DNA of 62,959 bases, the filler included, from Hausera hauseri (lineage: Eukaryota), in NCBI GenBank assembly GCA_046269625.1. It is 9 parts of 9 records of this genome, joined end to end, with 100 filler letters (N's around TTAATTAATTAA, not from the genome) between each part and the next. Parts side by side here need not be neighbours in the genome. Positions count along the whole stretch, not along the records: positions 8,738 to 25,148 come from JBJURY010299944.1; 8 more parts are not named here. The stretch is one strand, 5' to 3'. The notes beneath the pieces were generated by a model, which searched no databases, was not told where the DNA came from, and saw only the letters and a program-made list of their open reading frames with translations. Below, one piece after another: positions 5,683-52,526 of this stretch. Position numbers and translations under genes: made by a program. How positions within the stretch are numbered: the stretch's first letter is position 1; each line of letters opens with the position of its first letter.

Positions 5683-5683
5683 G

Positions 5684-5694
5684 AATGCTCCAGC
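5684..5694 (+). promoter_or_regulatory. Self-priming primer binding site (Tf1-type)
   Basis: AATGCTCCAGC immediately after the LTR is the exact reverse complement of GCTGGAGCATT at 4794-4804, about 25-30 nt downstream of the TATA box. Confidence 0.8.
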
Positions 5695-6535: not shown

Positions 6536-6760
6536 GACCAAGCCCTTTTTCAGTCTGCGCCGTTTCCGTCCTGAGGTCCAGCCCAGTTTCGTTCGGCCCC
6601 GGCCCCATTTCTGTCAGTCACAGTTCCGGAGCAAGCCGAAGGTCCGGTTCAAGGGCGTGACCGGTCCATTTGGGTCCACAGGGCCCTCCGGCCAGACCCC
6701 CTCCACCCACCCGGGGAAGGTGATTCGGGTGCCAAGAGGCCCCCGTTAGGGGGGGGGTAC

Positions 6761-8737: not shown

Positions 8738-11700
8738 ATATCTATGACTTTAGAAATTTTAAAATCGACGTAGAAAAATTTAATGGACAACCGGATAAGT
8801 TGATACCATTTTTGAAAGCTTACAAATCACAAAGTACTGCACTAGAAGTTAGTGAAAAGGATCAAATCAGACGTTTACCATTATATTTGACAGACATAGC
8901 CATAGATGCTTATAACGATTTGACTGAAGCCGAGCGAAAAAATTGGAATACCATAAGCATAGCAATGATAGATAGGTTCTTGCCAACCATGTCCCCTCAA
9001 CAACAATTAATTATTTTCCAAAATAGGTTTCAGAAGAATGAATCAGTTACTCAGTTTGCATACTCGTTACGACAGTTAATTTCCAATTATGTAGAAGCTA
9101 TTAAATTGACTAAAATGAGAAAAAATGGAAATAACGAAGTCGAAGAGATCAAAGTTGATACTGATATTTTGTTATCTACACAATTTATTCGTGGTCTCGT
9201 ACCAGATTTGAGGTATAAGGTTCTGGCCGGAAGCCCAAATACATTTGCTGATGCTTTAAAAATGGCACAAAATTTTGAGGCATTTAAACCGCCTAAGCAA
9301 AATAAAGATAATAATTATCAAGCTTCGAGCTCAAATTTTCAGCAAAGCATGCCACGAGAAGATACTAGACAGAATCTATCTAGTAATCAGCAACGAAATG
9401 ATAATTTAGACGCTAACCAAAGTAATAGAAGACCATTTAATAAAGGCAACAATTATCAAAATGATGGTCGTGAAGATATAAATAAAACAGGAAGAGTTAT
9501 AAAATGTTACAGATGTCAGCGTACAGGACATACTGCAAACAACTGTAGAACTCCTAACGACAGATTACCGATAAAAAGCGAGCCTACAACAAAATCAGCA
9601 GCTTTTAATGGTCCTGTAGAAAATTATTACCTTGATTATTGGCCTATGGAAAAACAAGATGCTAAAGAACTTGCTAAATTTCAAAGCTCTAATCCAAACC
9701 GTACGTATCATTCTTGTGGTACGGAAGAAGATGAGGAATTGTTACAAGCTAAGAGAATAATCATTGCAGCACATAAGGATGCAGTACGAAAACACTTTGC
9801 CGGATATCAACTAACGGAACTAGAGCAAATAGCATTTGACTCACTGCCTATACCCGTAGCAGCAGTAGATAAAGATGGAAAGAAAACTATTAAAATGTTG
9901 TCATATGGTTACACCGATGGTTTACCAGCAAAGTTGAAAAAAGTTCCAGAAAAAATTTCCGAAGATACTTTATCAAAACTAAAGAAGCCGAGAAAAGGCT
10001 CAAAATCTCCTCCAAGAAAATTTGCAGATAAGTTTATAAAAGAAGATAAAGAAATTTCCGAAGAAGCTAAAGAAAAAGTTATGAATCAAATGATTAAAGA
10101 TTTAGATCAAATGGCAAGAGGTGAAATACCTTTTGGTTTAGAGAAACTTGATTCTATTAATGCATATTTGCAACCCACCAGCTCATCAAAAGGTAATTAT
10201 AATAAACTTATGAAAGAAATGTACGATTTTCGTAAAACCGAAGTTCAGGAATCGCAAAGAAAACAGATTGACGAGGTTATTGAAGAAGTGCTAAACAAAG
10301 ATAAAACACCTGAACAAATTGAATTAGAAATGTTGCTTAAGGAAGCGCAAGAACTTATAAATAAAGAATTTTCTACATCACAATACGTAGAAGACGTGAT
10401 TATTAAATTAGTTCAGTACAAATTAAAGACAAAAGATTTACCAATTAAGCAAAAACAATTATTGAATGATGATATTAAAGCATTAGAAAGTAAATCCAGC
10501 TACATAAAAAGCAAATTAAATGAATTTCAAGTAGCAAATGACGAAATAGCAGACCTGTTAGACCAAGCACTATCAGTGTCTGAATTGCAAAAATGGAGCG
10601 CCCTCCAAATTTTAGCTCAACGAAGTCAAAAAGAACCTCTTAGTTTGGAAAAATTGGAACAATTAAATGACATTCAAAGCAAATTGCTAGATGTTACTAC
10701 ATCTTTTATAGAATCTATTTCAGAATTAAAGTTTGAAATCCGGAAGTTACTAAATGACAATGAAGATATGGATGACGGCCAGCGAAAGAAACTAACGAAA
10801 ATTCTTAAAGAAATTAGAAAATTAGGTATCGAACCAGATGAGGAAAAAGAACAAAAATTGGAAGAATTCATAGTAACAGTAAAAAGAATCAGAAATAATA
10901 TGTTATATAATGTTGATCTAGATAAAGTAGATTTAGAGTCAGAATCTACCACGCCAAAAACAATGCCCATGGAAGAGGCACAAACCAAAAAAGTGGAGAT
11001 TGTAACAATCTCATCAGATTCTGATGAAGATTTGTACAAACCACAGAGAGATGAATTAGTAAACGTTGCCATTCAGAAAATAGATTTGCAGCAAGAAAAT
11101 ACTGACAACGACTTGGAAAAACAAATAGATGCCTTCAAGAATCATCCTAGTTTTCTAGAAACATTGTTACTGACTTATCTTACTCAAAAACCAGATACTG
11201 AAAACATAAAAAAAGTTGCTCATAAGCTGGTTTCGTTAACCGCTGACGAGTATGCGTATAACGCAACTCCCAGAGTATTGTTAAAGTTGTTAGGAACAAA
11301 TATTAGACGAGTTATAAATCCAGAATTAGATTATGTAAATATCGTAACAAAATTTAACAGCTTAATAATGCCACAAGCCAAATTTTTAGTAAATGATACT
11401 ATAAGACAAATAGACAACCATATCAGAACCAGTATTGACAAACCATTAAATGAGTTGAATTATAATTTTAAAGGACGTTCCTTAAATTTAGACGACTGTA
11501 TTACTGACTTAGGAATGTTACCTCAAAAAACATACATAATAGATGTAGAGGAAGGAGACCTTAAACCCCTACCAGTAGTGCCAGAGAACATCAACTTAAC
11601 TGAGGTTTGTAATGATGATACGGAAATGCTCGAAAACGTAGCAAAATGTACATTGCTAGAATTAAATAAAACAGCAAAGACTAAGCGAACAAAAACAATT

Positions 11701-14700
11701 ACGTTAGCACAACAGTTTGCGAAACAACTTCAAGATTACGAAGTTCCTCAGCTATACAAAGAATACAAAGAAGTAAAAAGCTTAGTAAAAGAAATATTTG
11801 ATATCGATAGAGGTGTGACTAAACCTAACGCGAATCAAAAATGGAGAACCAGAGTAATCGAATTGCTAAAATATATTAAAAAATTGAAGAAAATGCCTGC
11901 ATACAAGAACATTACCTCGGAAGATTTAGCTCAATTACTAGTGGAAAAAACCACTCGAAAAAACCTAGAAAAAGGTATATGTCTCCTCGTGACGGACATC
12001 CATGATCAAAGCGATATAAAGACAATCACTGGAAAGGTTATACAATTAAGTCAAAATATTATACCAAGCAAATGTTCTTGGGATGAGTTATTCTTACGAA
12101 ATAGCCAAACCTTGGCGAAATTCCAACAAGAGGCTGAATTAACTTATAGAACTATTCTAGAAAAAGAAGAAATTTTGTTGCCAAAACTAACCAGTGAATT
12201 GACTAAATCATTGGAAAATGAAATTAAGGAAACTCGGGTTAAAGGAAGCAATGCAGCATATTCATCTATATTCCTCTTGATATTACTATTTATGTCATTA
12301 ATTAGGAAAGGTAATAATATCTTGGCATACGATTGCGAACATATTTATGAAGGAGATTATTACTCCTTGATGGACCTGGATTCATGTCCTGAAGCACATC
12401 CCAGGAATATAACAACCGTTCAAAAGACTTTATATATTTATCATGATCGAGCAGCGGTACAAATAAAAGGATATGAATGCATGCTCACAAGGTCAAGAAC
12501 AGTAACATATTGCGGAATGCATAGTCATGAAACCATTATCATACCAACTACTATACCAGAACCAGAAGCGGTATCACCTGAAGCTTGTAAAATAGCTGTT
12601 GAAACAGGATTTTTAAGATTTGATAGAATGGAATTTAAAGCAGGTATAGGAGAAGTTCATCAAACAGAAAGATATGTTGTCGGAACCAAAGATTTAGGTG
12701 GAAACTGTAATGGAGGAACTTATGATTTAGGAAAAGGACCACAATCGGGTTTAATAATACATGATCAATACAGAATTCAAATAAAACAGCAAACTTACAA
12801 TTTTGACACTAATACAAAAGCTATGATGGATGCTTCATTTTGCAAGTTAGGGAAAGGGTACTGCCACACTATAAATTCAGTCTTGATATGGGACGTACCG
12901 AAAAAATTTGACTGCCATTTAGTATTGATAAAAAAGGGTATATTTAACGTAACTTCAGGCAAGAGATATGCTAAATATTTCGAGACCAACTTCGAACAAA
13001 CTAATGTAAACCAGATACCAGAAATTAAAACACCTACAATTGTTATGTCCGCAAACTTAGTAGGAGGAGTGAAGTTTATCCAACAAGAACCTACATTTAA
13101 ATGTGGAAAGGCTATCCATTCCACGAACTATCCCTCCTATTATATCGCAGATTCAGAAGTGCCAGACGCCGATAATTTACCAGTCGATATTAAAAGCTTT
13201 CTGAACTTAGGAGATCACTTTAATATTAGAGATGACACCTTGTTTTATATAACGCAAAAAACTATGGATGAAATGTATACCGAGATAATTGAAAATTTCT
13301 GTAAAGTGAATCTCGAGACATTAAGGAATAGATTAGCAATTCTAGCAACTAATCCAGAAATGGCTGCAATAACCATGCCGTTAGGCGAAGGAATCCAAGG
13401 AAAAATTATAGGCGAGGCCCTATTCACCTATAAATGTAAACGTATAGATGTGCCATTAGTAATATTGAAGAATATATGTTATATAGAAATTCCGGTAACT
13501 TATAAGAAAGCGATTCGTTATGTCCAACCAATAACGCGAATATTGTTAGATAAAAATACTGAACCCACTAGAATAGTGAATTGTACGACTTTATACCAGC
13601 CTTATATAAAATACGACAACGAAGGCACATGGGTAGTATTACCCGAAAGAAAGAAACCTCATAAAACACCTAAACGTCTCACAATGACAGCTTTACGACA
13701 TGCTGTAGAAAACAATCTGTTCACAGATCTATCAAAAACCACTCTCTATACCAGAGATGAGATAAATGATATGATCCAAGCTTTAAGATATCCAGTACAA
13801 AGAGAACAAGCTTTAAATAAAGCCTTACACCGCATACTGGATGATGGAGTTCAAGATGCTAGATGGGAAAAATTATTAAGTCCAGATCATTATAAGGAAG
13901 TAACTATGAATTTCTTAAAAACTTTATGGGGAGGTTTTATAAAGTTTGGCACAGTTTCAGCGGGAATATTCACTATTTATTTGAGTATACAGACTGCCAA
14001 AGCGATCCTTTCGTCATTATTGAACGCCTATGAAATATATACCTTAACCGGGTTTTCATTAAAAATATTATCTGCCGTCTTCACACCATTTGGTAAGATA
14101 TTAAAAGCTCATGAAGAAAAAAGATGGAAAAATCTAATAGAAAAACATGTTAAAATGGACAACAGAAAAAAGAAACCGCCGCCTAAACCTCCACCGAGGT
14201 TAGATGGTGAGAACAATACTTACACTGAAGTACCGGTGACAAGTACAAATAATCAGGATTTGCCTCTAATTACAGAAAGAATTGAAAGAGATATTAAAAA
14301 CCCCTACGGTGAACACGATAAATACGGAAAATTGTTTGTTATACCGAGAGTTTCAAATCAAACAGACCAAATCAAGAATGAACAATTAAGGCGAACTAGC
14401 CAATACCCAGATTTAACGTTATTCTCACAAAAATGGCAACCGATTACCACGTCAATGACTAGACCAAAAACACCACCCGTATCTATTTCCTCTAGACCAA
14501 CCTCTCCACTACTGACTAACTCGATTTTATTAGAAAATAACAATACGACTGACCTAACCCTCACTGGTAAATTTGTGGTTGAAAACGGTGTGGTCAGAAC
14601 TGCAGGCGTATATTCACTATTACCTTTGGTCGAAAATCCTACAGAAAAACAACTTCAGGCCATAAATCGAGTGCGAGATCCAAGACCGCAAACTACAGTA

Positions 14701-16446
14701 CGAATTAGAAATTTAGAAATAAATGCCTTAATTGACACTGGAGCTACAATATCTCTAATTCATCAAATGCTTATACCAATCAATTACCAGCACGAAGTAC
14801 GCCTACCAAACCCGTCAGATACAGGCAATGTGTCGCTTTTTGGACAAACAGTATTTCCAGTAGGATATTGGACAACGGAAATAATTCTTTACGATCAAAA
14901 GTTGGTTGTGACATTGCAAGTTTTGCAACAGTTGTACCCTAATATGATCATAGGTATGGACACATTGAAAAAATTAAAAGATTCTGTAATAGATTTAACA
15001 ACGGGTCAAGTACATATAAATCACAAATTCCAGTTGCAAGATAACCCAAAATACGTTAATGCTGTATGGATTGAAAATGAAACCATATTACCACCGTATA
15101 GTGAAATATTAATCAAAGGAAAATTATTGGCACCAGAAAACACAATAGTAAAGTTCGAACCAAGAAGATTTTGTAAAGGATACTTTTTTGCTTCAAATTG
15201 TACAATAGTTCAAAATGGTACTATTCCAATAGTAGTAGCAAATTGTAATCCAAAGACAATAATTTTATACCCAAACACTCGAATAGGTGAATTCTATTAT
15301 ACATTTAGCCAAAATATTACGGAGTATTTGGCTGCAACAACCCACGGAGAATTATATGACCATGAAATTTTTCAGCAATTGGTAACAAATATCAAACAAA
15401 GAATAAATGACGAGCAACTAAAAGATATGATAAAATTAGTGAAAGAGTTTGCAGAAATCTTTGCAGTTAATGATGTAGATATTGGATGTACAGACTTAGT
15501 AGAATTTAGATTAAATTTGGTTACAGATGAGAAAACGGGCAAAGAGATAGACTTAAACAAGCAACCAATGCCTAAATGGTACCCTCCACCTCATTCACTT
15601 CAAGCCGAAGTAGTAGAACAGGTTCAAGATTGGTTAAATAAGGGAATTATAGAACCTAGCCAAGCATCATGGGCATCACCAATTGTGATGGTTCCAAAGA
15701 AAAATACCACAAAAAGGAGACTATGTGTTAACTTCGTACAATTAAATAAATATTTAGAAAATCATATCTATCCCATACCACGAATCAAAGAAATAATAAA
15801 TGACTTGAAAGGATGCACCTTATTCACTGCCTTAGATTTACAATGGGGATTTTTGAACATCCCAATAGTAGAATCAGATAAATGGAAAACAGCTTTTAAA
15901 ACTCATACTGGCATATATCAATTTAATAGGATGCCATTTGGTCTAAAAACGGCACCAACTTTTTTCCAGGAATTTATGAGAATAGTTCTGAAAGGAATAC
16001 GGAGTCTATCGTATATAGATGATATTCTAATTGCCTCCAGAACTTGGCACGAACACATGCAACAACTTCGAGAAGTTTTTGAGAGAATACGTGATGCAAA
16101 ATTAAAACTAAACCCATTGAAATGTGACTGGTGTCAAACCTCTGTAACTTATTTGGGTTTCAAGATCTCTGCCAACGGCATTGAAACTAGTCCGCACATA
16201 GTTGCCAAAGTGTTAGAATTTCCTGCTCCTACGAATAAAAAAGAACTGCAATGTTGGTTAGGACTTATTGGATACTACAGTATTTTCATACAAAATTTCT
16301 CCCAAATAAATAGTGTATTATATGAATTGTTACGAAACGATAAAAAATACATTTGGGAAGAAAAACACCAAAATGCTTTTGACATCATGAAAAAAAAATG
16401 GTTTCAGCACCGATTTTACAATATCCAGACTTTGAATTACCATTAA
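8738..16446 (+). CDS. Polyprotein part 1: Gag, helical insert, glycoprotein, aspartic protease, reverse transcriptase
   Basis: 2548-aa ORF from 8800, open to the contig edge. CYRCQRTGHTANNC at 9505-9546; ALIDTGA at ~14725; WASPIVMVPKK, RMPFGLKTAP, YIDD at 16012-16023. Confidence 0.95.
12250..14110 (+). CDS. env: Envelope glycoprotein domain, chuvirus (Jingchuvirales) G-like, putative class III fusogen
   Basis: Hydrophobic signal SIFLLILLFMSLI, then ILAYDC..YSLMDLDSC, CMLTRSRTVTYCGMHSH, GEALFTYKC, CYIEIPV, QPITRIL; N-glycan sequons NIT, NVT, NCT; C-terminal hydrophobic LWGGFIKFGTVSAGIFTIYLSI at ~13925-14020. Pattern matches chuvirus G as I recall it. Confidence 0.8.
15060..15300 (+). other. 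dUTPase-like beta-rich spacer between protease and RT, probably inactive
   Basis: TILPPYSEILI...IPIVVANCNPKTIILYPNTRIG resembles the degenerate dUTPase-fold segment found in many Gypsy pol proteins. Confidence 0.45.
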
Positions 16447-16523
16447 TCTTGAAGACAGACGCTAGTTTAAACGGATTAAGCTATATCTTAGCACAGTAAT
16501 ATCCTAACGAAAAAATCGAACAT
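16390..16523 (+). pseudogene. Disrupted RT-connection/RNase H junction: 1-nt frameshift in an A9 run plus in-frame TAA
   Basis: Shifting at A9 (16390-16398) gives VSAPILQYPDFELPLILKTDASLNGLSYILAQ*YPNEKIEHVVAYGGR, in frame with ORF 16524; TAA at 16497-16499. Confidence 0.9.
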
Positions 16524-19500
16524 GTGGTGGCATATGGAGGTAGAGCCTTATCTAAAGAAGAAAAGAATTATTCAACTACTGAATTGGAACTTTTAGCTGT
16601 CCTAGAAGGATTACGAAATTACGAATTTTATATCTATGGTTACCCTGTGATAGTGTATACAGACCATCAAGCATTAGAAAAACTTGACTGTAAAAACAAA
16701 AGAATATACAATCGTATACAACGATGGAAATTGGAGTTGTTAAATTACAACCCAAAGTTTAAATATGTACCAGGAAAAATGCACACCGATGCAGATGCTA
16801 TATCGCGAACCATATACCCTTCTGAGATCGCATCAGCAGCGCTCACATTGATGGATGAACACGAATTTACAACAATGATGACAGATTTCGCCAACCTTAA
16901 TACCAGCAAACTAGCAACCGTTCAGGATGATGATCCTTTACTGTATATAGTGAAAAAATTTGTACAAACATCAGAAATACCGAACATTGATGAACGTTTA
17001 ACCGATTGGCTAACTGAACATAAGTCCAAACTGATTATCGATCGAAATATACTAAAGTATGTATATAATGACAAAGCTTTAATAGTGATACCCAATTCAT
17101 TGATTAAATCCGTATTACTCCAGGAACATGATTCTCACCTCGCTGGCCATCCTTCGCTAAGAAAGACTATAGAACGAATTAAACTCAAGTACTTTTGGCC
17201 GAATCAATCAGAGGATATAGTTAATTGGGTCAAATCTTGTAAGATTTGCGCAACCCGAAGGGATAGGGGAAGATGTATAAGACCAATGCTTGGAACACTT
17301 CCAGAGCCCAAAGCACCTATGGAAATATGTGCTATGGATATTTCAGGACCTTATCCGATATCCGAATCAGGCTATAAATATATACTGAGTTTTATTGACT
17401 ATTACACAAGTTACATTATATTAATCCCATTAAAAACTATGACTACTGAAGCAATAGCAATGGAACTATTTAACAAACTGATATGCGTATTGGGATCACC
17501 TAGATTAATATTAACTGATAGAGCGCCATATTTTACGAGTCAACTATTTAACGAAGTTTCAAAAGTATTACAAACTAGACATGTGTTAACCACAGCTTAC
17601 CATCCACAGTGTAATGGTAAAGTAGAACGATCTAATAGAACTGTGCAAGGAATTTTATCTGTACAAGTCTCAACAGACCAGAAAAATTGGCCAGATAAAT
17701 TGCCCACTGTAGCCTTCGCCATGAATACCACACCAACGAGAAGTACAAGTAAAACACCATACGAATTGATGTTTGGAAGACTTCCTTTGTTACCTTTAGA
17801 CGTTGAGCTACTACCAACAGCTTTACCATTTACGGGTAACCAGCAAGAAGAAAATTACGTAGTTTTGCTAAAACAATTAAACGAATATGGAGAACAAGCG
17901 AAAGCAGTTAGAGAAGAATACAAAAAATCCTATACTAAACATTACAATAAAAAGGCTCAGACAAATCCCTATAAAAAAGGAGATTTCATCATGATTCACT
18001 ATCCAGTAACAACCAAAGGAAGATCCCTAAAACTGACGCGCACTGGCAAAGGTCCATATAAAGTTGTGGAAGTTAGACCACAAACTCTATTCATTGAAAA
18101 ATCTCCAGGGAAAATAGAGAATGTTTCCGTACAGAATGTAACTAGAGCCCCAAAATCGTACACAGGAAAATTCGGTCTCACATCAACAAATTTGCTTTCC
18201 ACTAATTTGTTAACAATGATTTGCATTCTTATTATTCTGTTATCTTGTACTCATACAAGTTATGGTCAATTTAATATTCCTTATAAATCTATGGTACAGC
18301 TGATTAAGCAGAATCAAAACCATACAGCTAGCGATGAGATATTCAACAAGGAAATACAAGTACTTGGACCAGATTTTGAAAGAGGCTGTATAAAGTTCAA
18401 AAAGAGACATACCAGTAATATCGTGCGAATAGTGATTTTCTACAAAGAAAAATTAGCATTCACTGATTTGGATAATGAGAATAACTCAACATGTCTTTTA
18501 GTAATTAGAGATCAACCATTTTCCTTGCTAGCATTAATTTTTAAAGGTAATAAAGAGAATAAGTGGGACTTACATCTAACAGTCAAATCCAGTATAAAAT
18601 GTTTAATACCTTTTAAAATCAACGAATGTGTTTATGACGTCACCTTCATGATCAAGCAAAATAGGTGCAACATAACTTATAAAGAATATAGAAAGATGGC
18701 AAAACATAATGATTTGGAGATCACCGAAAATTTATTTGTAATGATTTACCCTAAATCTGATCGAATAGCATTCGCTTGGAATTATCAATCAAATATTAAG
18801 AATACACAAGTTAGCGTCACTTGTATAAATCAGCATCATCAACAACGAATTATCCTTGAAAGGAAGCAAAAATATGCTCATTGTGCAAAGTTAAGTTCAG
18901 ATACTGATTACTTAATAGTAATAAAAAATTGCACTCATTATTCAGAATTGTATGCTAGAACCTTACCCAGAGTAAATAGAATAATCAAGTTCAATTATAA
19001 TAAAAATGACTCTAAGACTGATTCACAAACTGTGAAACCAAAAATAGATAATATTGAATCAAGCATGGTTGCGTGTGCCTTCCTAATCATTATATTAAGT
19101 GTAACTTTGTTCTTTGTGTTGGCTATAGGCACTTTAATTATTCCAAAAATAGTACGATACAGCCATAATGACACTATCACGTGTCACTGCCCACTAATTT
19201 CAAGATGGCGGTCGCAGGCTAGTCATCCGCATGAGCAATTATCGCACACACTACACGCGCCCCCACAAATAGTTACATTATTAGCATATTCATTGGTTAT
19301 GTGTTGTTCGCACACCAATAGAGGTGAGTATTTAAATGAAGTTCATTTATTTTCAGTCCTCTACAAATTCAATATGAAACGACAAAATCCGAAAATGACA
19401 AAAAACGATTCTCAAATTCAGTCTAATTTGCTGTATTCCAAGATGAATCCCCAGTATCATGCAGATCAATTGGACTCGCAAACGTTAATCCAGAATTTTG

Positions 19501-21365
19501 GGAGTAAAAGAGGGAGTCTCAACAAAACTATGTCAAAAACCTTCTATAATAATATCCGGAGACAGATGATAAAAATGGACCATTTCGTAGCTTTAAGTGT
19601 GGTTCGAATCCCGAATCAATTAAAGCACGAAATTACTGTAAACCGAAATCTCGGAATTTACTTGATCCAGGAGGCCCAGCAGTTAGAACTAAAGAGATAC
19701 ATGTCCAAAACCGACATGATAGATGGACTAGTAATCCATGTCGCCAGAGGCATGATCAGCTTAAAAACCCGGAGCGAACAGCAGTATCCTGATTCAAACG
19801 TCTGCACGATCTGTGAAGAAGAAACTCTATTTATCAACACTCCCATGAGCATTGATTTAATCCAAGCCAGACCAATGTATGTACCACTCGTTATAATGCT
19901 AGAATGGCTCCTCCCTGAAAAACACCTATATTTACCCAGACCAATGATCTTGGCTCATAATCCTCCTGAAATAGTGCGACAATCCAGGTTGAATTTTATC
20001 AACACCAACCAAAGTAACACAATCCGAATATTAACAGTATCAGTCGGATACATGCAGGATAATAGCCCCTTACCTATCCACGTCATTATCACCAACAAAA
20101 CGGGGACTATATTGTACGAAGCCATAGTTGCCAATAGAAAGAATGTACACAATGTTAATTCAATAAGACATGGCATATTACCGGAGTATATTGCTCATCA
20201 CGGGCAAGACATATTCGATGTCACAAGAGAAATTATTAATTGGCTATTCGGGACCGTGGTAGTTGGGTTGGAAACACATAAAATGTTAGAAGCCTTCGAC
20301 ATACCACTCAATTATTTTGCAGGAATTATAGATTTATTAAAACACGAGGAGATCACCGGACACACGTTTCAACAGTTGACGTTAATGAATATCAGCACTG
20401 TTCTGAAACTACCTGGATCACGAAATGGTCATGGATATGCACAAGACAACCACGGTAAATTACGACTTACTATGGATATTTTTCAGAAGGTAACAAACCC
20501 CTTCCAAGTAGCATGGATACCACCGGAACCTTTTAATAATGTTATTGACCCTGGAGAGCTGTTTTATAACAGGGAAAAATATTTAGCAGAATTCGCTTGG
20601 ATCCATCATGTGATAGAAGGACTTGTTCAGGACCCAGAAGCTATTGTGGATGAAATCATGGATGAGTTAAAAACACCATCCATGTCGGATATTTCAGATA
20701 TCGTTGCAGATGAAGAACGAAAATTACAACTGGAAGATCAGACTCTTGAAACCACTGACGAACAAACATACAATACGGATTGGGGTAAATGGAATCATAA
20801 TACCAGCAATATGAGCTCAATAGCAGTCCAGACAGAGGACACTGATTTCGACAAGTTCGTTAGAAGAATAAAACAAGGATTGAGAAAATCAGAAGTCTTT
20901 ACATTTCCATACGGAATCATTATTTACACGAGAAGCTTCAGCTTTCCCGTAGTAATTGATTCCATCGAGGCACCACTCTATATTGATCAGACAATCCCTC
21001 AAATTACATTACAATCATGGGACAGCAGCAACAACATACTCATTGGATTTATATATGAGAGATCAGTGGACATAAAGATCCTTTTCCTATTCGAAGATTA
21101 TGAAAGACTGTATAAATTACCCATAAGACTGGATGCCGAATTACACGTTAAGCTCCCGGTTCAGGTAAAAAATAATACCGTAGTAACGAAGCTGAAAAAT
21201 GAGCATAAAGGAGGGAAATTGACTTATATCTTGTTAATCAAATGCCAGAAACCTACTATGATCCCGATTGAGCGTGTACCACAAGGAAAGAAACCAGATT
21301 CTGAATTAACATTGACATACAGAATCGAAAATGAAATCAGACAAGAAGTTGACCTGGACTATTGA
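16524..21365 (+). CDS. Polyprotein part 2: RNase H, integrase, signal/ectodomain/TM module, exonuclease-like domain, unknown C-terminus
   Basis: NYSTTELELLAV, VYTDHQAL; HHCC (HDSHLAGH..CKIC); DDE core (AMDISGP, TDRA, VERSN); GPYKVV ~18050; hydrophobic stretches ~18207-18265 and ~19065-19150. Confidence 0.93.
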   Translation: MVAYGGRALSKEEKNYSTTELELLAVLEGLRNYEFYIYGYPVIVYTDHQALEKLDCKNKRIYNRIQRWKLELLNYNPKFKYVPGKMHTDADAISRTIYPSEIASAALTLMDEHEFTTMMTDFANLNTSKLATVQDDDPLLYIVKKFVQTSEIPNIDERLTDWLTEHKSKLIIDRNILKYVYNDKALIVIPNSLIKSVLLQEHDSHLAGHPSLRKTIERIKLKYFWPNQSEDIVNWVKSCKICATRRDRGRCIRPMLGTLPEPKAPMEICAMDISGPYPISESGYKYILSFIDYYTSYIILIPLKTMTTEAIAMELFNKLICVLGSPRLILTDRAPYFTSQLFNEVSKVLQTRHVLTTAYHPQCNGKVERSNRTVQGILSVQVSTDQKNWPDKLPTVAFAMNTTPTRSTSKTPYELMFGRLPLLPLDVELLPTALPFTGNQQEENYVVLLKQLNEYGEQAKAVREEYKKSYTKHYNKKAQTNPYKKGDFIMIHYPVTTKGRSLKLTRTGKGPYKVVEVRPQTLFIEKSPGKIENVSVQNVTRAPKSYTGKFGLTSTNLLSTNLLTMICILIILLSCTHTSYGQFNIPYKSMVQLIKQNQNHTASDEIFNKEIQVLGPDFERGCIKFKKRHTSNIVRIVIFYKEKLAFTDLDNENNSTCLLVIRDQPFSLLALIFKGNKENKWDLHLTVKSSIKCLIPFKINECVYDVTFMIKQNRCNITYKEYRKMAKHNDLEITENLFVMIYPKSDRIAFAWNYQSNIKNTQVSVTCINQHHQQRIILERKQKYAHCAKLSSDTDYLIVIKNCTHYSELYARTLPRVNRIIKFNYNKNDSKTDSQTVKPKIDNIESSMVACAFLIIILSVTLFFVLAIGTLIIPKIVRYSHNDTITCHCPLISRWRSQASHPHEQLSHTLHAPPQIVTLLAYSLVMCCSHTNRGEYLNEVHLFSVLYKFNMKRQNPKMTKNDSQIQSNLLYSKMNPQYHADQLDSQTLIQNFGSKRGSLNKTMSKTFYNNIRRQMIKMDHFVALSVVRIPNQLKHEITVNRNLGIYLIQEAQQLELKRYMSKTDMIDGLVIHVARGMISLKTRSEQQYPDSNVCTICEEETLFINTPMSIDLIQARPMYVPLVIMLEWLLPEKHLYLPRPMILAHNPPEIVRQSRLNFINTNQSNTIRILTVSVGYMQDNSPLPIHVIITNKTGTILYEAIVANRKNVHNVNSIRHGILPEYIAHHGQDIFDVTREIINWLFGTVVVGLETHKMLEAFDIPLNYFAGIIDLLKHEEITGHTFQQLTLMNISTVLKLPGSRNGHGYAQDNHGKLRLTMDIFQKVTNPFQVAWIPPEPFNNVIDPGELFYNREKYLAEFAWIHHVIEGLVQDPEAIVDEIMDELKTPSMSDISDIVADEERKLQLEDQTLETTDEQTYNTDWGKWNHNTSNMSSIAVQTEDTDFDKFVRRIKQGLRKSEVFTFPYGIIIYTRSFSFPVVIDSIEAPLYIDQTIPQITLQSWDSSNNILIGFIYERSVDIKILFLFEDYERLYKLPIRLDAELHVKLPVQVKNNTVVTKLKNEHKGGKLTYILLIKCQKPTMIPIERVPQGKKPDSELTLTYRIENEIRQEVDLDY
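20022..20485 (+). CDS. DEDDh 3'-5' exonuclease-like domain (ISG20/REXO4 type) with degenerate catalytic residues
   Basis: HVIITNKTGTILYEAIV..HGILPEYI..DIFDVTREIINWLFGTVVVGL..IIDL..LTLMNIS parallels REXO4-type RVSIVN..G.VLYD..V..SGIRPE.L..F..VQ.EV..LL.GRILVGH; DxE and later Asp residues are not present. Confidence 0.65.
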
Positions 21366-21657: not shown

Positions 21658-21670
21658 AAGGGTCGGGGAT
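21658..21670 (+). promoter_or_regulatory. Polypurine tract
   Basis: AAGGGTCGGGGAT directly precedes the TGTTGTGG LTR start. Confidence 0.75.
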
Positions 21671-22234
21671 TGTTGTGGATTAGTCAGCTAGTAGTCTAGA
21701 CTAGTTGTACTAGACTGACCATCAAAATCAAAATCCCCGCGCGCGGCTAGTTTAAAAGTGACAGTTAATTTGATAATTGCGCCGGCGCTACAAAATTACT
21801 ATAAATAGTGAGACGAATTTCATTCTCACCGAATAACATTTTTGTTTAATGCTGTTGCTGAATCAATTTTGGGAAATTTTTGACATTTGGAATTTCTAAA
21901 TAGAGATTCATTTTTTAAAACCATTCATAAGTGAGTTTAGTATACGTAATTGTGTTCGTCTTATTTTTATCTTTATTTGGTAAATTGGTGGTTTTTATCA
22001 GTTTATTTGCTCGATTTGGTAAAATACATATTATATATTTTAATTCACTTCTTCTTATAAGTAAAAATATTGAAGCACGTTTTGCAGAGAAAACGTAGCT
22101 AACTAAACAAGTTTTTTATTTCCTCAATATAACAAATACCTACATACAATTAAATAACATACTTTTATCCCTCAGATTTGTGCATTTAAGAATTTTCAAT
22201 TAAAATTTTGATTGAACATTCTTAAATAACAATA
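21671..22234 (+). repeat. LTR (~560 bp) shared between tandem copies 1 and 2
   Basis: Bounded by PPT+TGTTG and by TAACA(ATA)+PBS; TATAAATA at 21800-21807; only one copy visible so the 3' end is uncertain by a few nt. Confidence 0.8.
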
Positions 22235-22237
22235 AAT

Positions 22238-22249
22238 TGGCGCCCGAAC
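22238..22249 (+). promoter_or_regulatory. Primer binding site, tRNA-Lys(UUU)
   Basis: TGGCGCCCGAAC equals the first 12 nt of the canonical tRNA-Lys3 PBS. Confidence 0.88.
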
Positions 22250-22821
22250 TCAAGTACGTTTGATTTACATTTCACCATTGATTTCATACGACGATTTTTA
22301 TCAAGGCGTAATAGGCCTGAATTTACCGTTATTGTTGGAGAAACAAAAATCCGTTTTCGTAATTACCAAACCTTTCTGGATTTCCTTGAAACTCAGAAAC
22401 GTTCTAATAATATCGTGCTTTTTAAGAAAGCTATTGTTATTGAAAAAAGTACTTGAATTCTGGTTGTTCCCCTACATATAACTTGAAACTTTCAACACAC
22501 GTTGTTAACCTTCAAGGGTCGGGGAAAATTGTAGTGTAAAATTGTGCGTTAGAAAACAAAAGTAATTAAATTCTTTTTTGACATACTTAGACTTCTGACT
22601 CCGACAGTCAAGTAGTCGCACAATATAAAATCAGCCAAGACTTAAGTAATAATTAATAAATACCATTGGGAAAAATATACAAATTAAAGTAGCTAAAGCC
22701 AACACTAATCATAAGTCGAAAAACTAGAAGTCAAAGCTTACTTAGATTTAAGGATAAAATAGACTTACCTACTGAAAAAATACCTATAGTTTTAGCAGAA
22801 AAACTTCAAATTAATAAGGAA

Positions 22822-25148
22822 ATGGCTGCTAAAGAAAACAACCTAAATGTTTATGACTTTAGAAATTTTAAGATTGATGTAGAGAAATTTAATGGACAAC
22901 CTGATAAGTTGTTAACGTTTTTGAAAGCATATAAATCTCAAAGCACCGCATTAGAAGTTAGTGAAAAAGACCAAATCAGACGTTTGCCTTTATACTTAAC
23001 AGACATAGCTATAGACGCTTATAATGAGTTGACTGAAGCCGAGCGAAAAAATTGGAACACAATAAGCATAGCAATGATAGACAGGTTTCTGCCGACCATG
23101 ACTCCTCAACAACAGTTAATAATTTTCCAAAATAGATTTCAGAAAAATGAATCAGTTACTCAGTTTGCATACTCTTTACGACAATTGATTTCCAACTATG
23201 TAGAAGCCATAAAATTGGCAAAAATGAGACAAAATGGAAATAATGAAGTCGAAGAGATCAAAGTTGATACTGATATTTTGCTATCTACACAATTTATTAG
23301 AGGTTTAATACCAGATTTGAGGTATAAGGTTCTGGCCGGAAGTCCAAATACATTTGCTGATGCTTTAAAAATGGCACAAAATTTTGAAGCGTTTAAACCG
23401 CCTAAACAAAATCGAGATAATAATTACCAGTCGCCAAATTCTAATTCTCAGCAAAGCATGCCACAAGAAGATCCTAGACGGAATTCTCCTGGCAATCAAC
23501 AACGTAATGATAATTTAGAAAGTATTCAAACTAACAAGAAACCGTTTTATAAAGGCAACAACTATCAAAATGATGGACGAGAAGATGTAAATAAAACAGG
23601 CAGAATTATAAAATGTTATAGATGTCAGCGTACCGGTCATACTGCAAATAATTGTAGAACTCCTAATGACAAATTGCCAATAAAAAGCGAGCCTACAACA
23701 AAATCAGCAGCTTTTAATGGCCCTGTCGAAAATTATTACTTTGATTGCTGGCCAATGGAAAAACTAGATGCAAAAGAACTTGCTAAACTTCAAAATCCTG
23801 ATGCAAACCGTACGTATTATACTTGCGGTACGGACGACGATGAAGAATTGTTACAAGCCAAGAGAATAATTATTGCAGCGCATAAAGATGCAGTTCGAAA
23901 ACATTTTGCTGGATATAAATTAACAGAAATGGAACAAATAGCATTTGACTCATTACCAATACCAATCGCAGCTGTAGATAAAGATGGAAAGAAAACTATT
24001 AAAATGTTGTCTTATGGTTATACAGACGGACTGCCAGCTAAGTTGAAAAAGATTCCAGAAAAAATTTCTGAAGATACATTGTCAAAATTGAAGAAACCTA
24101 GAAAAAGTTCAAAATCCCCTTCAAGGAAACTTGCAGATAAATTCATACAGGATGATAAGGAAATTTCTGAAGAAACTAAAGGAAAAGTTATGAATGAAAT
24201 GATAAAAGATTTAGACCAATTAGCAAGAGGTCAAATACCTTTTGGTTTAGAGAAACTTGAATCTATAAATGCGTACTTGCAGCCTACTAGTTCGTCAAAA
24301 GGCAATTATAATAAACTTATGAAAGAAATGTATGATTTTCGTAAAACTGAAATACAAGAAGACCAAAGAAAACAAATTGACCAGGTTATTGAAGAAGTAT
24401 TAAACAAAGACAAAACGCCTGAAGAAATTGAATTAGAAACCTTACTTAAAGAAGCACAAGAGGTTATAAACAAAGAATTTCCTACATCACAATATGTAGA
24501 AGACGTGATTATTAAATTGGTTCAATATAAATTAAAGACAAAAAACTTGCCAACTAAGCAAAAACAAGCATTGAATGATGATATTAAAACATTAGAAAAT
24601 AAATCCAGCTTTATAAAAAATAAGCTAAATGAATTTCAAGTTGCAAATGACGAAATTACCGACATTTTGGATCAAGCTTTATCAGTGTCTGATTTACAAA
24701 AATGGTCTGCTCTTCAAATTTTAGCTCAACGAAGCCAAAAAGAACCTCTCAGTCTAGAAAAAATAGAAGAACTAAATGACATTCAAAGCAAATTATTAGA
24801 AGTTACCACATCATTTATAGGCTCTATATCAGAATTAAAATTCGAAATTCGTAAACTATTAAATGAAAATGAAGATATAGATACTAGACAAAAAGCTGAA
24901 TTAATAAAAACTCTCAAAGAAATTAGAAAATTAGGTATAAATCCCGATCCAGAAAAAGAACAACAATTAGAGAAACTTATAGTAGCTGTAAATGAGATCA
25001 GAAATAATATGTTATACAGTGTAGACTTAGATAAAGCAGATTTGGAATCAGAAATTACAACACCAAGTACGACAGCCATGAAAGAGATAGAAGAAAAGAA
25101 AACGGTTACAGTAGTGATCTCATCAGATTCTGATGAAGATTCACTTAA
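22822..25148 (+). CDS. gag: Gag and helical insert of tandem copy 2, truncated by contig end
   Basis: Colinear with 8738-11035; ATG start MAAKENN; identical CCHC knuckle; many synonymous differences. Confidence 0.95.
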
Positions 25149-28239: not shown

Positions 28240-28632
28240 CTATAGTTTTGAAAGCATAGGCATCGCATTGTGCAAAATATTGATTTTAGATTTACAAATG
28301 TGTAATTTCAAATAGTAGTATTCCGGAGACCATTTATTGTCTGGAGATCTATTGATTTCCCATAAGAATATACGTATCCAAGTTTGCTTATGAGTCAATC
28401 CAATGTCTGATTCTGCTACCAATTCTCCAATTAGTTCAATTTCATTACTTTCTGTTTCCAAGCTTTTTAAATATTGTTGACGAAGGGAATGCACAATTTC
28501 GTGTAAATTCTGTTTTGGATATTGTTGTTTTAGTTTAACTATTTCGCATTCCACGTTCAAATTTTGTTTTGGTAATTTTTTGAGCATTTGTAATAGATGT
28601 GTTACTTCATGTACTTCAATTGATCGGTCCAC
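28240..28632 (-). CDS. Hypothetical protein (130 aa)
   Basis: ATG-initiated ORF overlapping the end of the upstream ORF; no motif recognised. Confidence 0.3.
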   Translation of the reverse strand: MDRSIEVHEVTHLLQMLKKLPKQNLNVECEIVKLKQQYPKQNLHEIVHSLRQQYLKSLETESNEIELIGELVAESDIGLTHKQTWIRIFLWEINRSPDNKWSPEYYYLKLHICKSKINILHNAMPMLSKL

Positions 28633-29525
28633 TTCGTTTTTTTGTAAGATTTAAATCTTTTTATTATTGCTGTGATATTTCTATATGATGAGCTATCCCA
28701 CGTGTTTCCTTTTACTATATCATTATTCCTTATTGCATTACATGATTTTAATAGTAGGAACTTATCTTTTGCTGACATTTCCTCATAAGACTTTCCGAAT
28801 TCTATTAAAATGGTATCAGTAATTGATATAAATATATTGTCGTCTGATATTATATATCGATCTATGGCCATTCTATTGAATTCCATTTGTACTTCTTCAT
28901 CATCCATCCAGGGTATATCATCTAATTCCACTCTGGGCCATGTACGGCTTTTAACAATTTCCTTTGTAGTGGTGGTGGTGGATGATTCCTTCAATAAACG
29001 TTGTATATGAGGATCCTTTGTCCATGGGTTTTCAATTATTTCTACTTCAGGTATTATGTAATTTAAAACTGTTCTAGCGGCTAATATATCAAAGATTTCA
29101 CCCAAAATCTTTTCTCTACTAACTCGTTTTTTCTCTTCCCATTGTCGTTTCGTGAATCGAATCAATTCTGTTAATTGTTCAACTGCATATATTGCTAGTA
29201 TGTATGATATAAATTTTACGTATTTCGCATGATCGAAATCGCTTGAGTGGGTTCGTTGGGCGGCACAGTTTCCCATTAAACAACATATTACTATGGTAGA
29301 TAGAAGTACTGAATTTGGTCTACCATGATTTCTTTGGTTTTCTTCATAATCAGAAGGAAGCAGTTGTTTAACCATCCTTTGATAATATCTTACTACTTGA
29401 CAAAATTTATAACATACTACTATTACCAATGCAACTACTGTGCTGCTTGCTAAACCTATTAAAAACATCAGTAATAAAAATAATCTATAATCTACAATTG
29501 GTAGAGTAGGAATAACTGCATATTC
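28602..29525 (-). CDS. Uncharacterised multi-TM protein, open to contig edge; possibly a retroelement accessory ORF
   Basis: At least 288 aa with three hydrophobic segments, intronless, immediately upstream of an LTR. Confidence 0.4.
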   Translation of the reverse strand, partial: EYAVIPTLPIVDYRLFLLLMFLIGLASSTVVALVIVVCYKFCQVVRYYQRMVKQLLPSDYEENQRNHGRPNSVLLSTIVICCLMGNCAAQRTHSSDFDHAKYVKFISYILAIYAVEQLTELIRFTKRQWEEKKRVSREKILGEIFDILAARTVLNYIIPEVEIIENPWTKDPHIQRLLKESSTTTTTKEIVKSRTWPRVELDDIPWMDDEEVQMEFNRMAIDRYIISDDNIFISITDTILIEFGKSYEEMSAKDKFLLLKSCNAIRNNDIVKGNTWDSSSYRNITAIIKRFKSYKKTKWTDQLKYMK

Positions 29526-50161: not shown

Positions 50162-50995
50162 TCAGGGTGAATCTAGAATGATTGAATTCGTCCATGCTGA
50201 AAAATCACCCGTGGTTGAAGAACGACTCGACTGGGGTGCTTTCAACGCTCTTTGGTGAAAGGAGTTGAGGGGCAGTGAATCCATGGCAGGGTCATCGGCA
50301 TCCTTCGGCACATGTGGGGATGGTAGGGAAATATCGAGAGGTGGATTCTCAAGAAAAGAAAAGCAAGACCAAGAACATGGTGGAATCGAGGAAAGAGGGG
50401 TATATGGTAATTTCCATATAAAGTTGGGTAATAGGTGTGGACGGCACGGTGACAGAAGCGAGTTAGAACGACGTCGCTCTTTGTAGATATCGTGGGCAAT
50501 AAACAGCATATATTCGGCATCCATCTTACCAGAAATAAAATATTCGGACAATTTAGAAATAAAGGTAAATGGGAGGAAACCGTTTCTACTGAAGTTTAAA
50601 TCTATACAACCAAGAACAATTGTGGGAGGTAAATGCCACAAGGCAAGAAAAAATTGTGGATTAAACGTAACTAAGATTTTGCCATATATAGCTCTTCGAA
50701 TATGAGCTCTGCACAGAAAAATATTTGGGGAAAATTCGATATCATCTAATGATATCCCATGGTAGTGCTTGTCAATATTATCAATCTTTTCTCTTGGACA
50801 TACGTAAGATTTATAGCGTGGTGTTAAATTTTTATCGGGATCAACGGATAAGTCAGCAAGAGAAATCTGAATAAGTAAAGGAAGGGTGCCTGAAAAAGCA
50901 ACGGCATAACCAATAAAAAGGATGTCCTGGAGTGAATATGAATGGGGAATTTTAACACAGGAGTGTAAAATGGGTTTGGGGGTTGAGGTATCCAA
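50162..50995 (-). CDS. Hypothetical protein (277 aa); may be a frameshifted continuation of 50824-51783
   Basis: Overlaps the upstream ORF by 172 nt in another frame; TTG start only. Confidence 0.4.
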   Translation of the reverse strand: MDTSTPKPILHSCVKIPHSYSLQDILFIGYAVAFSGTLPLLIQISLADLSVDPDKNLTPRYKSYVCPREKIDNIDKHYHGISLDDIEFSPNIFLCRAHIRRAIYGKILVTFNPQFFLALWHLPPTIVLGCIDLNFSRNGFLPFTFISKLSEYFISGKMDAEYMLFIAHDIYKERRRSNSLLSPCRPHLLPNFIWKLPYTPLSSIPPCSWSCFSFLENPPLDISLPSPHVPKDADDPAMDSLPLNSFHQRALKAPQSSRSSTTGDFSAWTNSIILDSP

Positions 50996-51783
50996 TCCAA
51001 TTCATTAAATGAAAGCCCTCCGTTAGGGGAATTATCTATATAGTGATACCAAGCCGGAATATCTGCATACTCCAGTTCAAGGTAAAGAAGGGAAGTCTCT
51101 CTGAATGCGATGGTGCACGATGTTGAAGACCAAATATCGGAAGTGAACACAATAGATCTGAAGGAGGACAAATAAACTTTGAATAAAGGTAGAGGCGGTT
51201 TATATATTTCTACTATAACTGAACCTAGGGCAACAGTCAATAAAATATCTTGAGGGTGTAGTGGAAAACCGGCGATAGCAAACTGTTGTTCTATAAAATC
51301 GCGTAAGGGATAAGGTCCATAATTATGGGACCAATAAGAAATTAGGATGCACCGATCGCGTAAACTATTTCCTTTATATTTATTAGGAATTGTGAATACT
51401 GATGGATATCGGGTAATAGGTTTATGAACTGAAGCGTCTATACGCATAGAACGATATGTAGAACGAGAGCGAAGGACCTCGGTAATAAATGGAATAACGT
51501 TTTTATTGGGTAGGTATAGGGGTATGCGGGGCATTTGCTGTAAGTTAGCAAATTGGAGGCTTTGTCCAATATTACGGATTAGTGGAGACTGATCTAGGAC
51601 ATGAGATATACCTGAACACGAAGGCCCAGGTGACAGAATTAAAGGTTGTTGAACATCTCCCACAGTGCGGTCGACAGACGTCGATTCTGATTCAATACTG
51701 ATACCGGAATTCAGCCAATCAATTTGATGGTTGGTGTTAATTTTTGTTGGAAATTGACTAGCTTCTTCAACGGTGTTTGACAT
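50824..51783 (-). CDS. Hypothetical protein (319 aa)
   Basis: Long intronless ATG ORF in AT-rich context; no motif recognised. Confidence 0.45.
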   Translation of the reverse strand: MSNTVEEASQFPTKINTNHQIDWLNSGISIESESTSVDRTVGDVQQPLILSPGPSCSGISHVLDQSPLIRNIGQSLQFANLQQMPRIPLYLPNKNVIPFITEVLRSRSTYRSMRIDASVHKPITRYPSVFTIPNKYKGNSLRDRCILISYWSHNYGPYPLRDFIEQQFAIAGFPLHPQDILLTVALGSVIVEIYKPPLPLFKVYLSSFRSIVFTSDIWSSTSCTIAFRETSLLYLELEYADIPAWYHYIDNSPNGGLSFNELDWIPQPPNPFYTPVLKFPIHIHSRTSFLLVMPLLFQAPFLYLFRFLLLTYPLIPIKI

Positions 51784-52526
51784 TAGAACTGACTGGTTGG
51801 CGTATTGGTTTACTAAAATATAAATGTGGGTATGAGAAACATATGACCAAGCCTGAAGGTAATAGGCCGTGGCAAACTTTAACTGTCATAAAATCGAAGA
51901 GTACATATTATCATATTGCCTATTTACAATTTCGTCAGTTACGAAGTAATTTAAATTAAAATTAATGTCGTATTGTGGAACATTCTCATACTCATTAAGA
52001 TAGTCAGCATAAAACGCTTCGTTAGACCTTTTAAAGTATATGGCTAAGAAAAAACTATGCCTGAAAGGATGATGACGACAACCCATATGTAAAAGAGGGG
52101 CAATGAGTTTTGTTTAAATTTTACAAATGCACTAGTTGTTGAGGCCGGTATACTTGAAAAAAAAAATAAAAAGCAAATTTTTGCTTTCAATTTGAAAAAT
52201 TTGTTTCAAATAATATGGGTTTTTCCAGCGGTTTGGAAATTACAAAGCGTGTTGTATTGCGTCCACGCGCCGTCAACTCAAACAAGGATTGATTTGGTGT
52301 AAAGTTAACTGTTGTAGTTAGGAGGTCCATTTTCGTAGAAACAATTCGTGAGTCTAACATAGCAACTCTTGGTTTTATGTGTGGGGATGACTTAGATGAG
52401 AATAAATGCTTTAAATTTAGCGTAGTNNNNNNNNNNNNNNNNNNNNNNNNNNNNNNNNNNNNNNNNNNNNTTAATTAATTAANNNNNNNNNNNNNNNNNN
52501 NNNNNNNNNNNNNNNNNNNNNNNNNN

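What the first reader, a model, noticed from the sequence alone, without database searches (positions are those of the whole stretch)
20022..20485. ISG20/REXO4-like exonuclease fold carried by the retroelement, apparently catalytically dead
Seen: spacing and hydrophobic pattern of a DEDDh RNA exonuclease, but ExoI DxE reads ILTVSVG and ExoII GH..ND reads GLETHKM. Known: ISG20 is antiviral and arenavirus NP uses a DEDDh domain for immune evasion. Inference: a pseudo-nuclease repurposed for RNA binding or as a decoy against host RNA defence. It is followed by an acidic linker and an unknown ~170-aa C-terminal domain.
Basis: inference. Interest (0 to 1): 0.72.

Follow-up and report, generated by a model that had tools for sequence, protein, structure and literature searches.

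The report
Dead exonuclease domain in a retrotransposon
A virus-like jumping gene carries an extra protein with the shape of an RNA-trimming enzyme whose cutting site is broken, joined to a second, jelly-roll-shaped domain; it may bind nucleic acid or host proteins rather than cut.

Summary
Confirmed, with one correction and one addition. Window 20019-20504 encodes a DEDDh exonuclease fold: best structural match human ISG20 (Z 18.8, rmsd 2.9, 159 aligned), and a profile of relatives hits ISG20L2 and ISG20. ExoI (both acids) and the ExoII acid are replaced, so canonical two-metal catalysis is very unlikely. Correction: ExoIII may keep His and Asp (HGYAQD); its register is ambiguous. Addition: the domain is half of a cassette with an upstream double-stranded beta-helix (cupin/2OG-oxygenase-like) domain. 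The cassette lies in frame after integrase and a membrane-protein module in a GAG-ENV(gB-type)-POL Ty3/gypsy element. Of 19 metagenomic relatives, 16 keep all five catalytic positions and 3 are degenerate; a second degenerate copy lies at 50162-51885 (minus). Best reading: an old pseudo-nuclease kept by selection as a non-catalytic binding module in a cytoplasmic accessory protein. RNA binding and counter-defence are untested; the domain has fewer basic residues than its relatives. DEDD domains in LTR elements (bdelloid DEDDy) and host pseudo-nucleases are known; I found no report of this combination. New variant; interest 0.5.

The parts
8738..16446 (+). gag (CCHC knuckle) - long charged spacer - gB/Monjiviricetes-type fusion glycoprotein (about 12265-14187) - protease - reverse transcriptase, one ORF; 5' end falls in a scaffold gap; reading frame breaks near 16390-16400
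   Evidence: (PF24664 E 1.1e-73, RVT_1, RVP, zf-CCHC)
16500..18149 (+). RNase H and integrase; an in-frame stop at 16497-16499 precedes this ORF
   Evidence: (RT_RNaseH, Integrase_H2C2, rve)
18150..19373 (+). Post-integrase membrane-protein module: signal-like hydrophobic stretch (18192-18269), about 260-aa putative ectodomain, transmembrane segment (19053-19154), short third hydrophobic stretch (19269-19310)
   Evidence: hydropathy; no Pfam or PDB sequence match
19374..19535 (+). Candidate start (Met at 19374) and polar leader of a 663-aa accessory product, about the size of the complete-looking stand-alone relatives (about 500-670 aa)
   Evidence: use of this start is inference
19536..19910 (+). 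Double-stranded beta-helix domain (cupin / 2OG-Fe(II) oxygenase-like); keeps the family's IPNxLK, Arg (19644), His (19737) and Gly (19749); no HxD/E..H or RxxxxxR motif seen
   Evidence: Z 9.3-9.9 to a cupin, ALKBH6, P4H, OsALKBH1, ALKBH7, Ofd2; 46 bits against shuffle maximum 9.9
20019..20504 (+). DEDDh (ISG20-like) exonuclease fold with a degenerate active site: T at 20034 and S at 20040 (ExoI), M at 20283 (ExoII); ExoIII either H 20430 / D 20445 with an insertion, or Q 20442 / K 20457
20505..20849 (+). Acidic linker
   Evidence: 26 D/E, 6 K/R in 115 aa
20850..21365 (+). Unidentified 171-aa C-terminal domain and stop codon
   Evidence: no significant hit; not folded
21658..22249 (+). Polypurine tract (21658-21669), LTR-like stretch, then a PBS-like motif (22238-22249) ahead of a second, related gag; places the cassette inside the element's 3' end
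   Evidence: LTR identity is inferred, since the 5' LTR is lost in the gap
50162..51885 (-). Second, distant and degenerate copy of the same beta-helix + DEDDh cassette, split over two frames near 50970-51000; ExoI reads FIGYAVA
   Evidence: (25 bits; next best of 1017 ORFs 5.1)

Best explanation
The segment is a pseudo-exonuclease domain in an accessory protein at the 3' end of an envelope-carrying Ty3/gypsy element. Shown: DEDDh fold, loss of both ExoI acids and the ExoII acid, fusion to an upstream beta-helix domain, position inside the element, and a family with live and dead members. Inferred: (1) the beta-helix + DEDDh cassette was picked up as a module; (2) it is made as an about 660-aa cytoplasmic product, from its own start or by cleavage behind the transmembrane segment; (3) catalysis was lost long ago and the fold has been kept by selection; (4) it now acts without cutting, most likely by holding nucleic-acid 3' ends or the element's ribonucleoprotein together with the beta-helix domain, which would shield them from host 3' exonucleases or small-RNA silencing. 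My odds: no canonical activity 0.85; kept by selection 0.75; binds nucleic acid 0.45; specifically counter-defence 0.25.
For: Fold. Active site: 16 of 19 relatives keep D-E-E-H-D, including distant P0006, which keeps 5 of 5 catalytic but only 33 of 50 other conserved columns. The query keeps 20 of 50 and at most 2 of 5. The three firm positions differ from any catalytic codon by 3, 2 and 2 nucleotides, so this is not fresh decay or a read error. The 1071 codons after integrase are open (chance about 5e-35 at local base composition), while pol carries two lesions. Dead versions recur: P0004, P0005, P0008 and the second window copy; the tree needs 2 changes of the label. GC3 is 0.33-0.48 in the cassette against 0.25-0.29 in gag, env and pol, fitting a captured module. 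Precedent that DEDD folds without the acids bind nucleic acid and do not cut: PML PXL and Exuperantia (PMC13659232, passages).
Against: No binding evidence. The domain has 13 K/R against 18-27 in relatives. Exuperantia and PXL binding is attributed at least partly to a SAM-like subdomain, and no such domain was seen here. ExoIII His/Asp may be retained (6 of 7 alignments). No close copies were found, so dN/dS could not be computed. The relatives' genomic context is unknown, so the cassette's link to retroelements rests on this one element. The tree has long branches and does not rule out a single origin of the dead forms.
Confidence: 0.5

Rival explanations
1. The beta-helix domain carries the selected function (binding a metabolite, a modified base or a host protein). 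The dead nuclease fold is kept mainly as a structural partner or protein-interaction surface and does not bind nucleic acid.
For: IPN, K and R are invariant in 16 of 16 and H and G in 17 of 17 aligned beta-helix domains, dead-nuclease members included. The nuclease fold has lost basic residues, and the positions it retains are mostly Gly and hydrophobic core.
Against: The second window copy keeps only part of the beta-helix motifs in the alignment. The low-confidence linker (pLDDT under 50 at model residues 141-169) gives no evidence for a packed interface.
Confidence: 0.27
2. The domain is not dead: it keeps or has rebuilt a non-canonical metal site from the HGYAQD His and Asp, the Glu of GLET and nearby histidines, as Maelstrom swapped DEDD for a zinc-binding ECHC set.
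For: H-x4-D aligns with ExoIII in 6 of 7 alignments. The domain has 10 His. Maelstrom precedent: bioRxiv 10.1101/2021.02.01.429129, passages.
Against: Both ExoI acids and the ExoII acid are gone in all alignments. In the model the last helix starts after the Asp. End-point offsets of the superpositions on ISG20 and ISG20L2 put the catalytic Asp position at model residue 318-319, not 315 (inferred from ranges, and partly circular). Two relatives have 9 and one has 12 His, so the count is not unusual.
Confidence: 0.11
3. The domain is a passenger decaying without function since capture.
For: This copy of the element is broken in pol. The second cassette in the window is split over two frames. 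The dead members sit on very long branches.
Against: About 75% amino-acid divergence from live relatives with no stop or frameshift in 1071 codons; core residues kept; the model is confident over most of the domain.
Confidence: 0.12

Closest known systems
ISG20 / ISG20L2 (REXO4-type DEDDh exonucleases)
   Same: Top structural matches (Z 18.8 and 17.8) and top profile hits (E 2.4e-17, 8.7e-10).
   Different: 14-16% identity; ExoI and ExoII acids absent; fused to a beta-helix domain; element-encoded. Live relatives have Glu at the ExoII position (D-E-E-D-h).
DEDDy ORF3 of bdelloid Juno/Vesta LTR elements and Terminons (PMC5408684; part 1 of 5 and passages)
   Same: A DEDD-superfamily domain carried at the 3' end of an LTR retrotransposon; there too the motif reads DEED; function unknown.
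   Different: Those are RNase D-like DEDDy domains with intact catalytic residues in a separate ORF3. This one is DEDDh-type, degenerate, in frame with pol and fused to a beta-helix domain.
Host pseudo-exonucleases Exuperantia, PML PXL, Maelstrom (PMC13659232, passages; bioRxiv 10.1101/2021.02.01.429129, passages)
   Same: DEDD fold without the metal-binding acids; PXL was shown not to cut and to bind nucleic acid. Exuperantia matches the model at Z 10.9.
   Different: Host genes with EXO-SAM or zinc-site architecture; no SAM domain seen here, and the partner is a beta-helix domain.
AlkB-like 2-ODD domain of orchid Ty3/gypsy elements (PMC9289625, passages)
   Same: A double-stranded beta-helix domain captured by a gypsy element.
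   Different: The orchid protein keeps HxD/E..H and RxxxxxR and demethylates m6A. Those motifs were not seen here, and the fold match is tied between cupins and 2OG oxygenases.
GAG-ENV-POL errantiviruses with gB-type Env (PMC13524379, abstract, section 5 part 1, passages) and planarian Burro elements (PMC6431247, passages)
   Same: Env in frame between gag and pol; Burro also loads extra domains on a polyprotein.
   Different: The errantivirus paper's main text has no occurrence of 'exonuclease', 'nuclease', 'DEDD', 'AlkB' or '2OG', and the Burro passages list no such domain. Here the extra cargo lies after integrase.
Arenavirus NP exonuclease
   Same: A viral DEDDh domain with a role in immune evasion; an arenavirus NP cluster is Atlas rank 9 at 0.89, a lead only.
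   Different: NP has a catalytic DEDDh site and a zinc finger; this domain lacks the ExoI and ExoII acids.

Membership tests
DEDDh / DnaQ-like 3'-5' exonucleases | RNase H-like DnaQ fold | tested here: met
   independent of the model:
DEDDh / DnaQ-like 3'-5' exonucleases | ExoI Asp-x-Glu | tested here: not met
   T-x-S in all alignments
DEDDh / DnaQ-like 3'-5' exonucleases | ExoII acidic residue | tested here: not met
   M where 16 intact relatives have E
DEDDh / DnaQ-like 3'-5' exonucleases | ExoIII His-x4-Asp | tested here: inconclusive
   HGYAQD in register only with a 4-residue insertion; ungapped register gives Q and K
DEDDh / DnaQ-like 3'-5' exonucleases | Pfam RNase_T curated cut-off | tested here: not met
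   no hit for the query; relatives P0006 and P0009 pass
DEDDh / DnaQ-like 3'-5' exonucleases | Metal-dependent 3'-5' exonuclease activity | not testable with these tools
   needs an assay
ISG20 / REXO4 subfamily | Groups with ISG20/REXO4 in a tree of cellular DEDDh families | not tested
   only best-hit evidence; no cellular sequences were held for a tree
AlkB / 2OG-Fe(II) dioxygenases (upstream domain) | Double-stranded beta-helix fold | tested here: met
   Z 9.3-9.9; a cupin (94 aligned, rmsd 2.5) and 2OG oxygenases (129-140 aligned, rmsd 3.2-5.2) are tied
AlkB / 2OG-Fe(II) dioxygenases (upstream domain) | HxD/E...H iron triad and RxxxxxR | tested here: inconclusive
   not seen in the query or as conserved columns in 17 members; no residue-level superposition on AlkB was available
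gB-type GAG-ENV-POL errantivirus (Ty3/gypsy) | gag, gB-like env, then PR-RT-RNase H-integrase in gypsy order | tested here: met
   equating PF24664 with the paper's gB type is my inference
gB-type GAG-ENV-POL errantivirus (Ty3/gypsy) | Two matching LTRs and target-site duplication | not testable with these tools
   5' end lies in the gap at 8638-8737; the 3' LTR-like stretch has no second copy in the window
gB-type GAG-ENV-POL errantivirus (Ty3/gypsy) | Placement in the POL phylogeny | not tested
   no reference set held
Arenavirus NP-type immune-evasion exonuclease | Intact DEDDh catalytic site | tested here: not met

The most novel reading that the evidence does not exclude
The beta-helix + DEDDh cassette is an undescribed accessory gene family of invertebrate retrovirus-like elements. 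Live members trim nucleic-acid ends; several lineages have independently turned it into a double pseudo-enzyme that caps or masks element RNA or cDNA against host exonucleases and piRNA/siRNA machinery. That would make it an element-encoded mirror image of host pseudo-nucleases such as Maelstrom and Exuperantia, and a dedicated counter-defence protein of a metavirus.
Probability: 0.2. Interest if true: 0.8.

Novelty: new variant of a known kind. Interest (0 to 1): 0.5.

Why it matters
Accessory proteins of invertebrate envelope-carrying retrotransposons are almost uncharacterised. This cassette gives a natural pair of live and dead versions of one nuclease family, so the question of what such elements gain from DEDD domains, left open for the bdelloid ORF3s, can be tested by comparing unaltered natural proteins. 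If the dead form shields element RNA, it would be a new kind of counter-defence factor. If not, it is still a clear case of repeated pseudo-enzyme formation in mobile cargo.

Tried and rejected
Direct Pfam and PDB sequence searches with the segment found nothing relevant. The word-index protein search with residues 1100-1621 found no relative among 5292 candidates of 891-2837 aa. The profile search returned only P0008 among 4572 candidates. Single-sequence folding failed. The Atlas search on the beta-helix domain gave unnamed clusters at low recognition. No relative of the intact subfamily turned up in GTDB genomes (119 pattern matches, 0 confirmed) or in 50,697 phage records; both are limited to fairly close relatives. 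Arenavirus NP and Maelstrom are not among the 50 rows shown, which does not exclude them. The first tree included an out-of-frame row and was redone without it. Sequencing error as the cause of the catalytic changes was rejected (2-3 nucleotide differences at each of three codons). No complex prediction was run. Sacco et al. 2022 on nematode metaviruses was not held. No supplements were read; those of PMC13524379 list elements and may bear on whether this family is already catalogued. Repbase and Dfam could not be searched.

Full report
Setting. The window is a gapped eukaryotic scaffold; the host was not determined. The finding lies in a Ty3/gypsy element. ORF 8738-16446 encodes gag with a CCHC knuckle, a long spacer, a Monjiviricetes-type fusion glycoprotein (PF24664, E 1.1e-73), protease and RT. 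ORF 16500-21365 encodes RNase H and integrase and runs on for 1071 more codons. This copy is broken in pol by a frame break near 16390-16400 and a stop at 16497-16499. After the ORF come a purine tract (21658), an LTR-like stretch and a PBS-like motif (22238) ahead of a second related gag. The domain is therefore inside the element. The GAG-ENV-POL order with gB-type Env is described for elements of nematodes, bryozoans and flatworms (PMC13524379, section 5 part 1) and, as env in frame between gag and pol, for planarian Burro elements (PMC6431247, passages).

Is the fold real? The segment alone misses Pfam RNase_T and PDB sequences. A phmmer search of 18150-21362 against 1.84 billion representatives gave 7 hits (E 2e-8 to 8e-4), all overlapping the nuclease region and 6 of 7 also the domain before it. 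Two of the 7 pass the RNase_T cut-off. A search with one of them added 12 more proteins. A profile of the query and the first 7 hits finds ISG20L2 (E 2.4e-17), ISG20, SDN1, PolC exonuclease and DnaQ. Profiles built without the query score it at 76.6 and 56.9 bits, against shuffle maxima of 15.6 and 7.7. The Atlas, from the single sequence, returns RNase_T clusters in 24 of 30 hits. The 22-sequence AlphaFold model (pLDDT 75, pTM 0.69) matches ISG20 best: Foldseek E 2.5e-7; VIA Z 18.8, rmsd 2.9, 159 aligned, followed by Pan2 at 15.2 in the wide search and ISG20L2 at 17.8 in the second look. The model depends on an alignment dominated by intact relatives, so the leave-out profile and the Atlas result are the independent checks.

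Is it dead? Of 19 relatives, 16 have D-x-E (ExoI), E (ExoII) and H-x4-D (ExoIII). P0004 and P0005 have none of the five, and P0008 lacks both ExoI acids and ends before the rest. The query has T and S in ExoI and M in ExoII in every alignment. ExoIII is unsettled. Six of seven alignments pair HGYAQD with H-x4-D by opening a 4-residue insertion; one pairs Q and K without a gap. All agree that LRLTMDIF pairs with the helix after the catalytic Asp. In the model that helix begins just after the Asp of HGYAQD. DEDD enzymes need four acids to hold two metals (PMC13659232, passage), so losing three makes canonical activity very unlikely whichever register is right. The three firm codons lie 3, 2 and 2 nucleotides from a catalytic codon. 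As a control, the distant live member P0006 keeps 5 of 5 catalytic and 33 of 50 other conserved columns; the query keeps at most 2 of 5 and 20 of 50.

The model has a second, well-predicted domain at 19536-19910. It matches double-stranded beta-helix proteins: a cupin (Z 9.9, 94 aligned, rmsd 2.5) tied with ALKBH6, prolyl hydroxylases, OsALKBH1, ALKBH7 and Ofd2 (Z 9.3-9.8, 129-140 aligned), and viral cupin, JmjC and AlkB models. A leave-out profile scores it at 46 bits against a shuffle maximum of 9.9. I-P-N, K and R are invariant in 16 of 16 and H and G in 17 of 17 aligned members, but no HxD/E..H or RxxxxxR pattern is seen, so dioxygenase activity is doubtful; the subfamily is unresolved. 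The complete-looking relatives are stand-alone proteins of about 500-670 aa (P0005 870 aa) with variable acidic or low-complexity tails. A Met at 19374 would give a 663-aa product of the same plan. GC3 in this part is 0.33-0.48 against 0.25-0.29 in gag, env and pol. The same profile found a second, degenerate cassette at 50162-51885 on the minus strand (25 bits; next best of 1017 ORFs 5.1). On a 21-row tree the dead label needs 2 changes, and 0% of 200 bootstrap trees need only 1. Dead members are on long branches, however, and well-supported branches do not exclude one origin.

How it most likely works. The cassette follows a transmembrane segment, so it should be cytoplasmic whether it is cleaved from a polyprotein or translated alone. 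A short third hydrophobic stretch leaves some doubt. An open frame across about 75% divergence argues for selection on the fold. The simplest role for a DEDD fold without its acids is binding without cutting, as shown for PML PXL and reported for Exuperantia. For a retroelement the likely ligands are its own RNA or cDNA ends; host DEDDh enzymes restrict retrotransposons (PMC10123124, search listing only). Against this, the domain has 13 K/R where 18 relatives have 18-27, no SAM-like partner was seen, and the invariant polar residues of the cassette sit in the beta-helix domain. I give binding or shielding 0.5, a scaffold for the beta-helix 0.27, neutral decay 0.12 and non-canonical activity 0.11.

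Comparison and novelty. DEDD domains in LTR elements are known: bdelloid Juno and Vesta carry DEDDy ORF3s with intact DEED motifs (PMC5408684). Orchid gypsy elements carry an active AlkB domain (PMC9289625). I found no report of a DEDDh, a catalytically degenerate or a beta-helix-fused exonuclease in a retrotransposon in searches. The errantivirus survey's main text does not contain the relevant words. The library omits most subscription papers and all of Repbase and Dfam, and no supplements were read. The domain works like, or descends from, a DEDDh exonuclease but fails the ExoI and ExoII tests, so it should be filed as a DEDDh-fold pseudo-nuclease and not as an ISG20 or REXO4 enzyme. Verdict: real, a new variant of a known kind, interest 0.5. 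The counter-defence reading has probability about 0.2 and would merit 0.8.

Noticed in passing
window 50162-51885, minus: Second degenerate beta-helix + DEDDh cassette, about 23% identical to the finding's domain, split over two frames; here it starts as its own ORF. Its element context is cut off by the gap at 52427-52526.
   Followed up: partly
window 18192-19154: Signal-like stretch, about 260-aa ectodomain and transmembrane segment in frame after integrase: a second membrane protein besides the gB-type Env. The last about 90 residues look FN3-like by recalled pattern only; no database support.
   Followed up: partly
window 18246-18266 and 19305-19325: The motif C-[TS]-H-T-x-x-G follows both the first and the third hydrophobic stretch; possibly a repeated cleavage site. 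If the third stretch is a signal peptide, the cassette would not be cytoplasmic.
   Followed up: no
window 22238-25146: PBS-like motif and a second gag, 85% identical in DNA over 2292 nt to the first, directly after the LTR-like stretch: tandem related elements, perhaps sharing an LTR.
   Followed up: partly
window 21658 and 22514: The same 12-base purine tract occurs before the LTR-like stretch and again in the leader of the second element.
   Followed up: no
window 9701-12263: About 850-aa highly charged spacer between gag and env with no significant Pfam match.
   Followed up: no
P0005: A degenerate relative begins with a hydrophobic, signal-like stretch and ends in a C3HC4 RING finger, so the cassette's C-terminal partner varies.
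   Followed up: no
window 28602-29573, minus: 323-aa ORF with several hydrophobic stretches, cut by a gap, no Pfam match; possibly the 3' cargo of another element.
   Followed up: no
window 46623-48101, minus: 492-aa intronless ORF that looks like a TRAF protein (RING, zinc fingers, MATH-like end) by eye; label recalled, not searched.
   Followed up: no
window 4685-7806: GC-rich block of tandem repeats (39-, 31-, 40- and 45-base units) with a duplicated segment about 2.1 kb apart.
   Followed up: no
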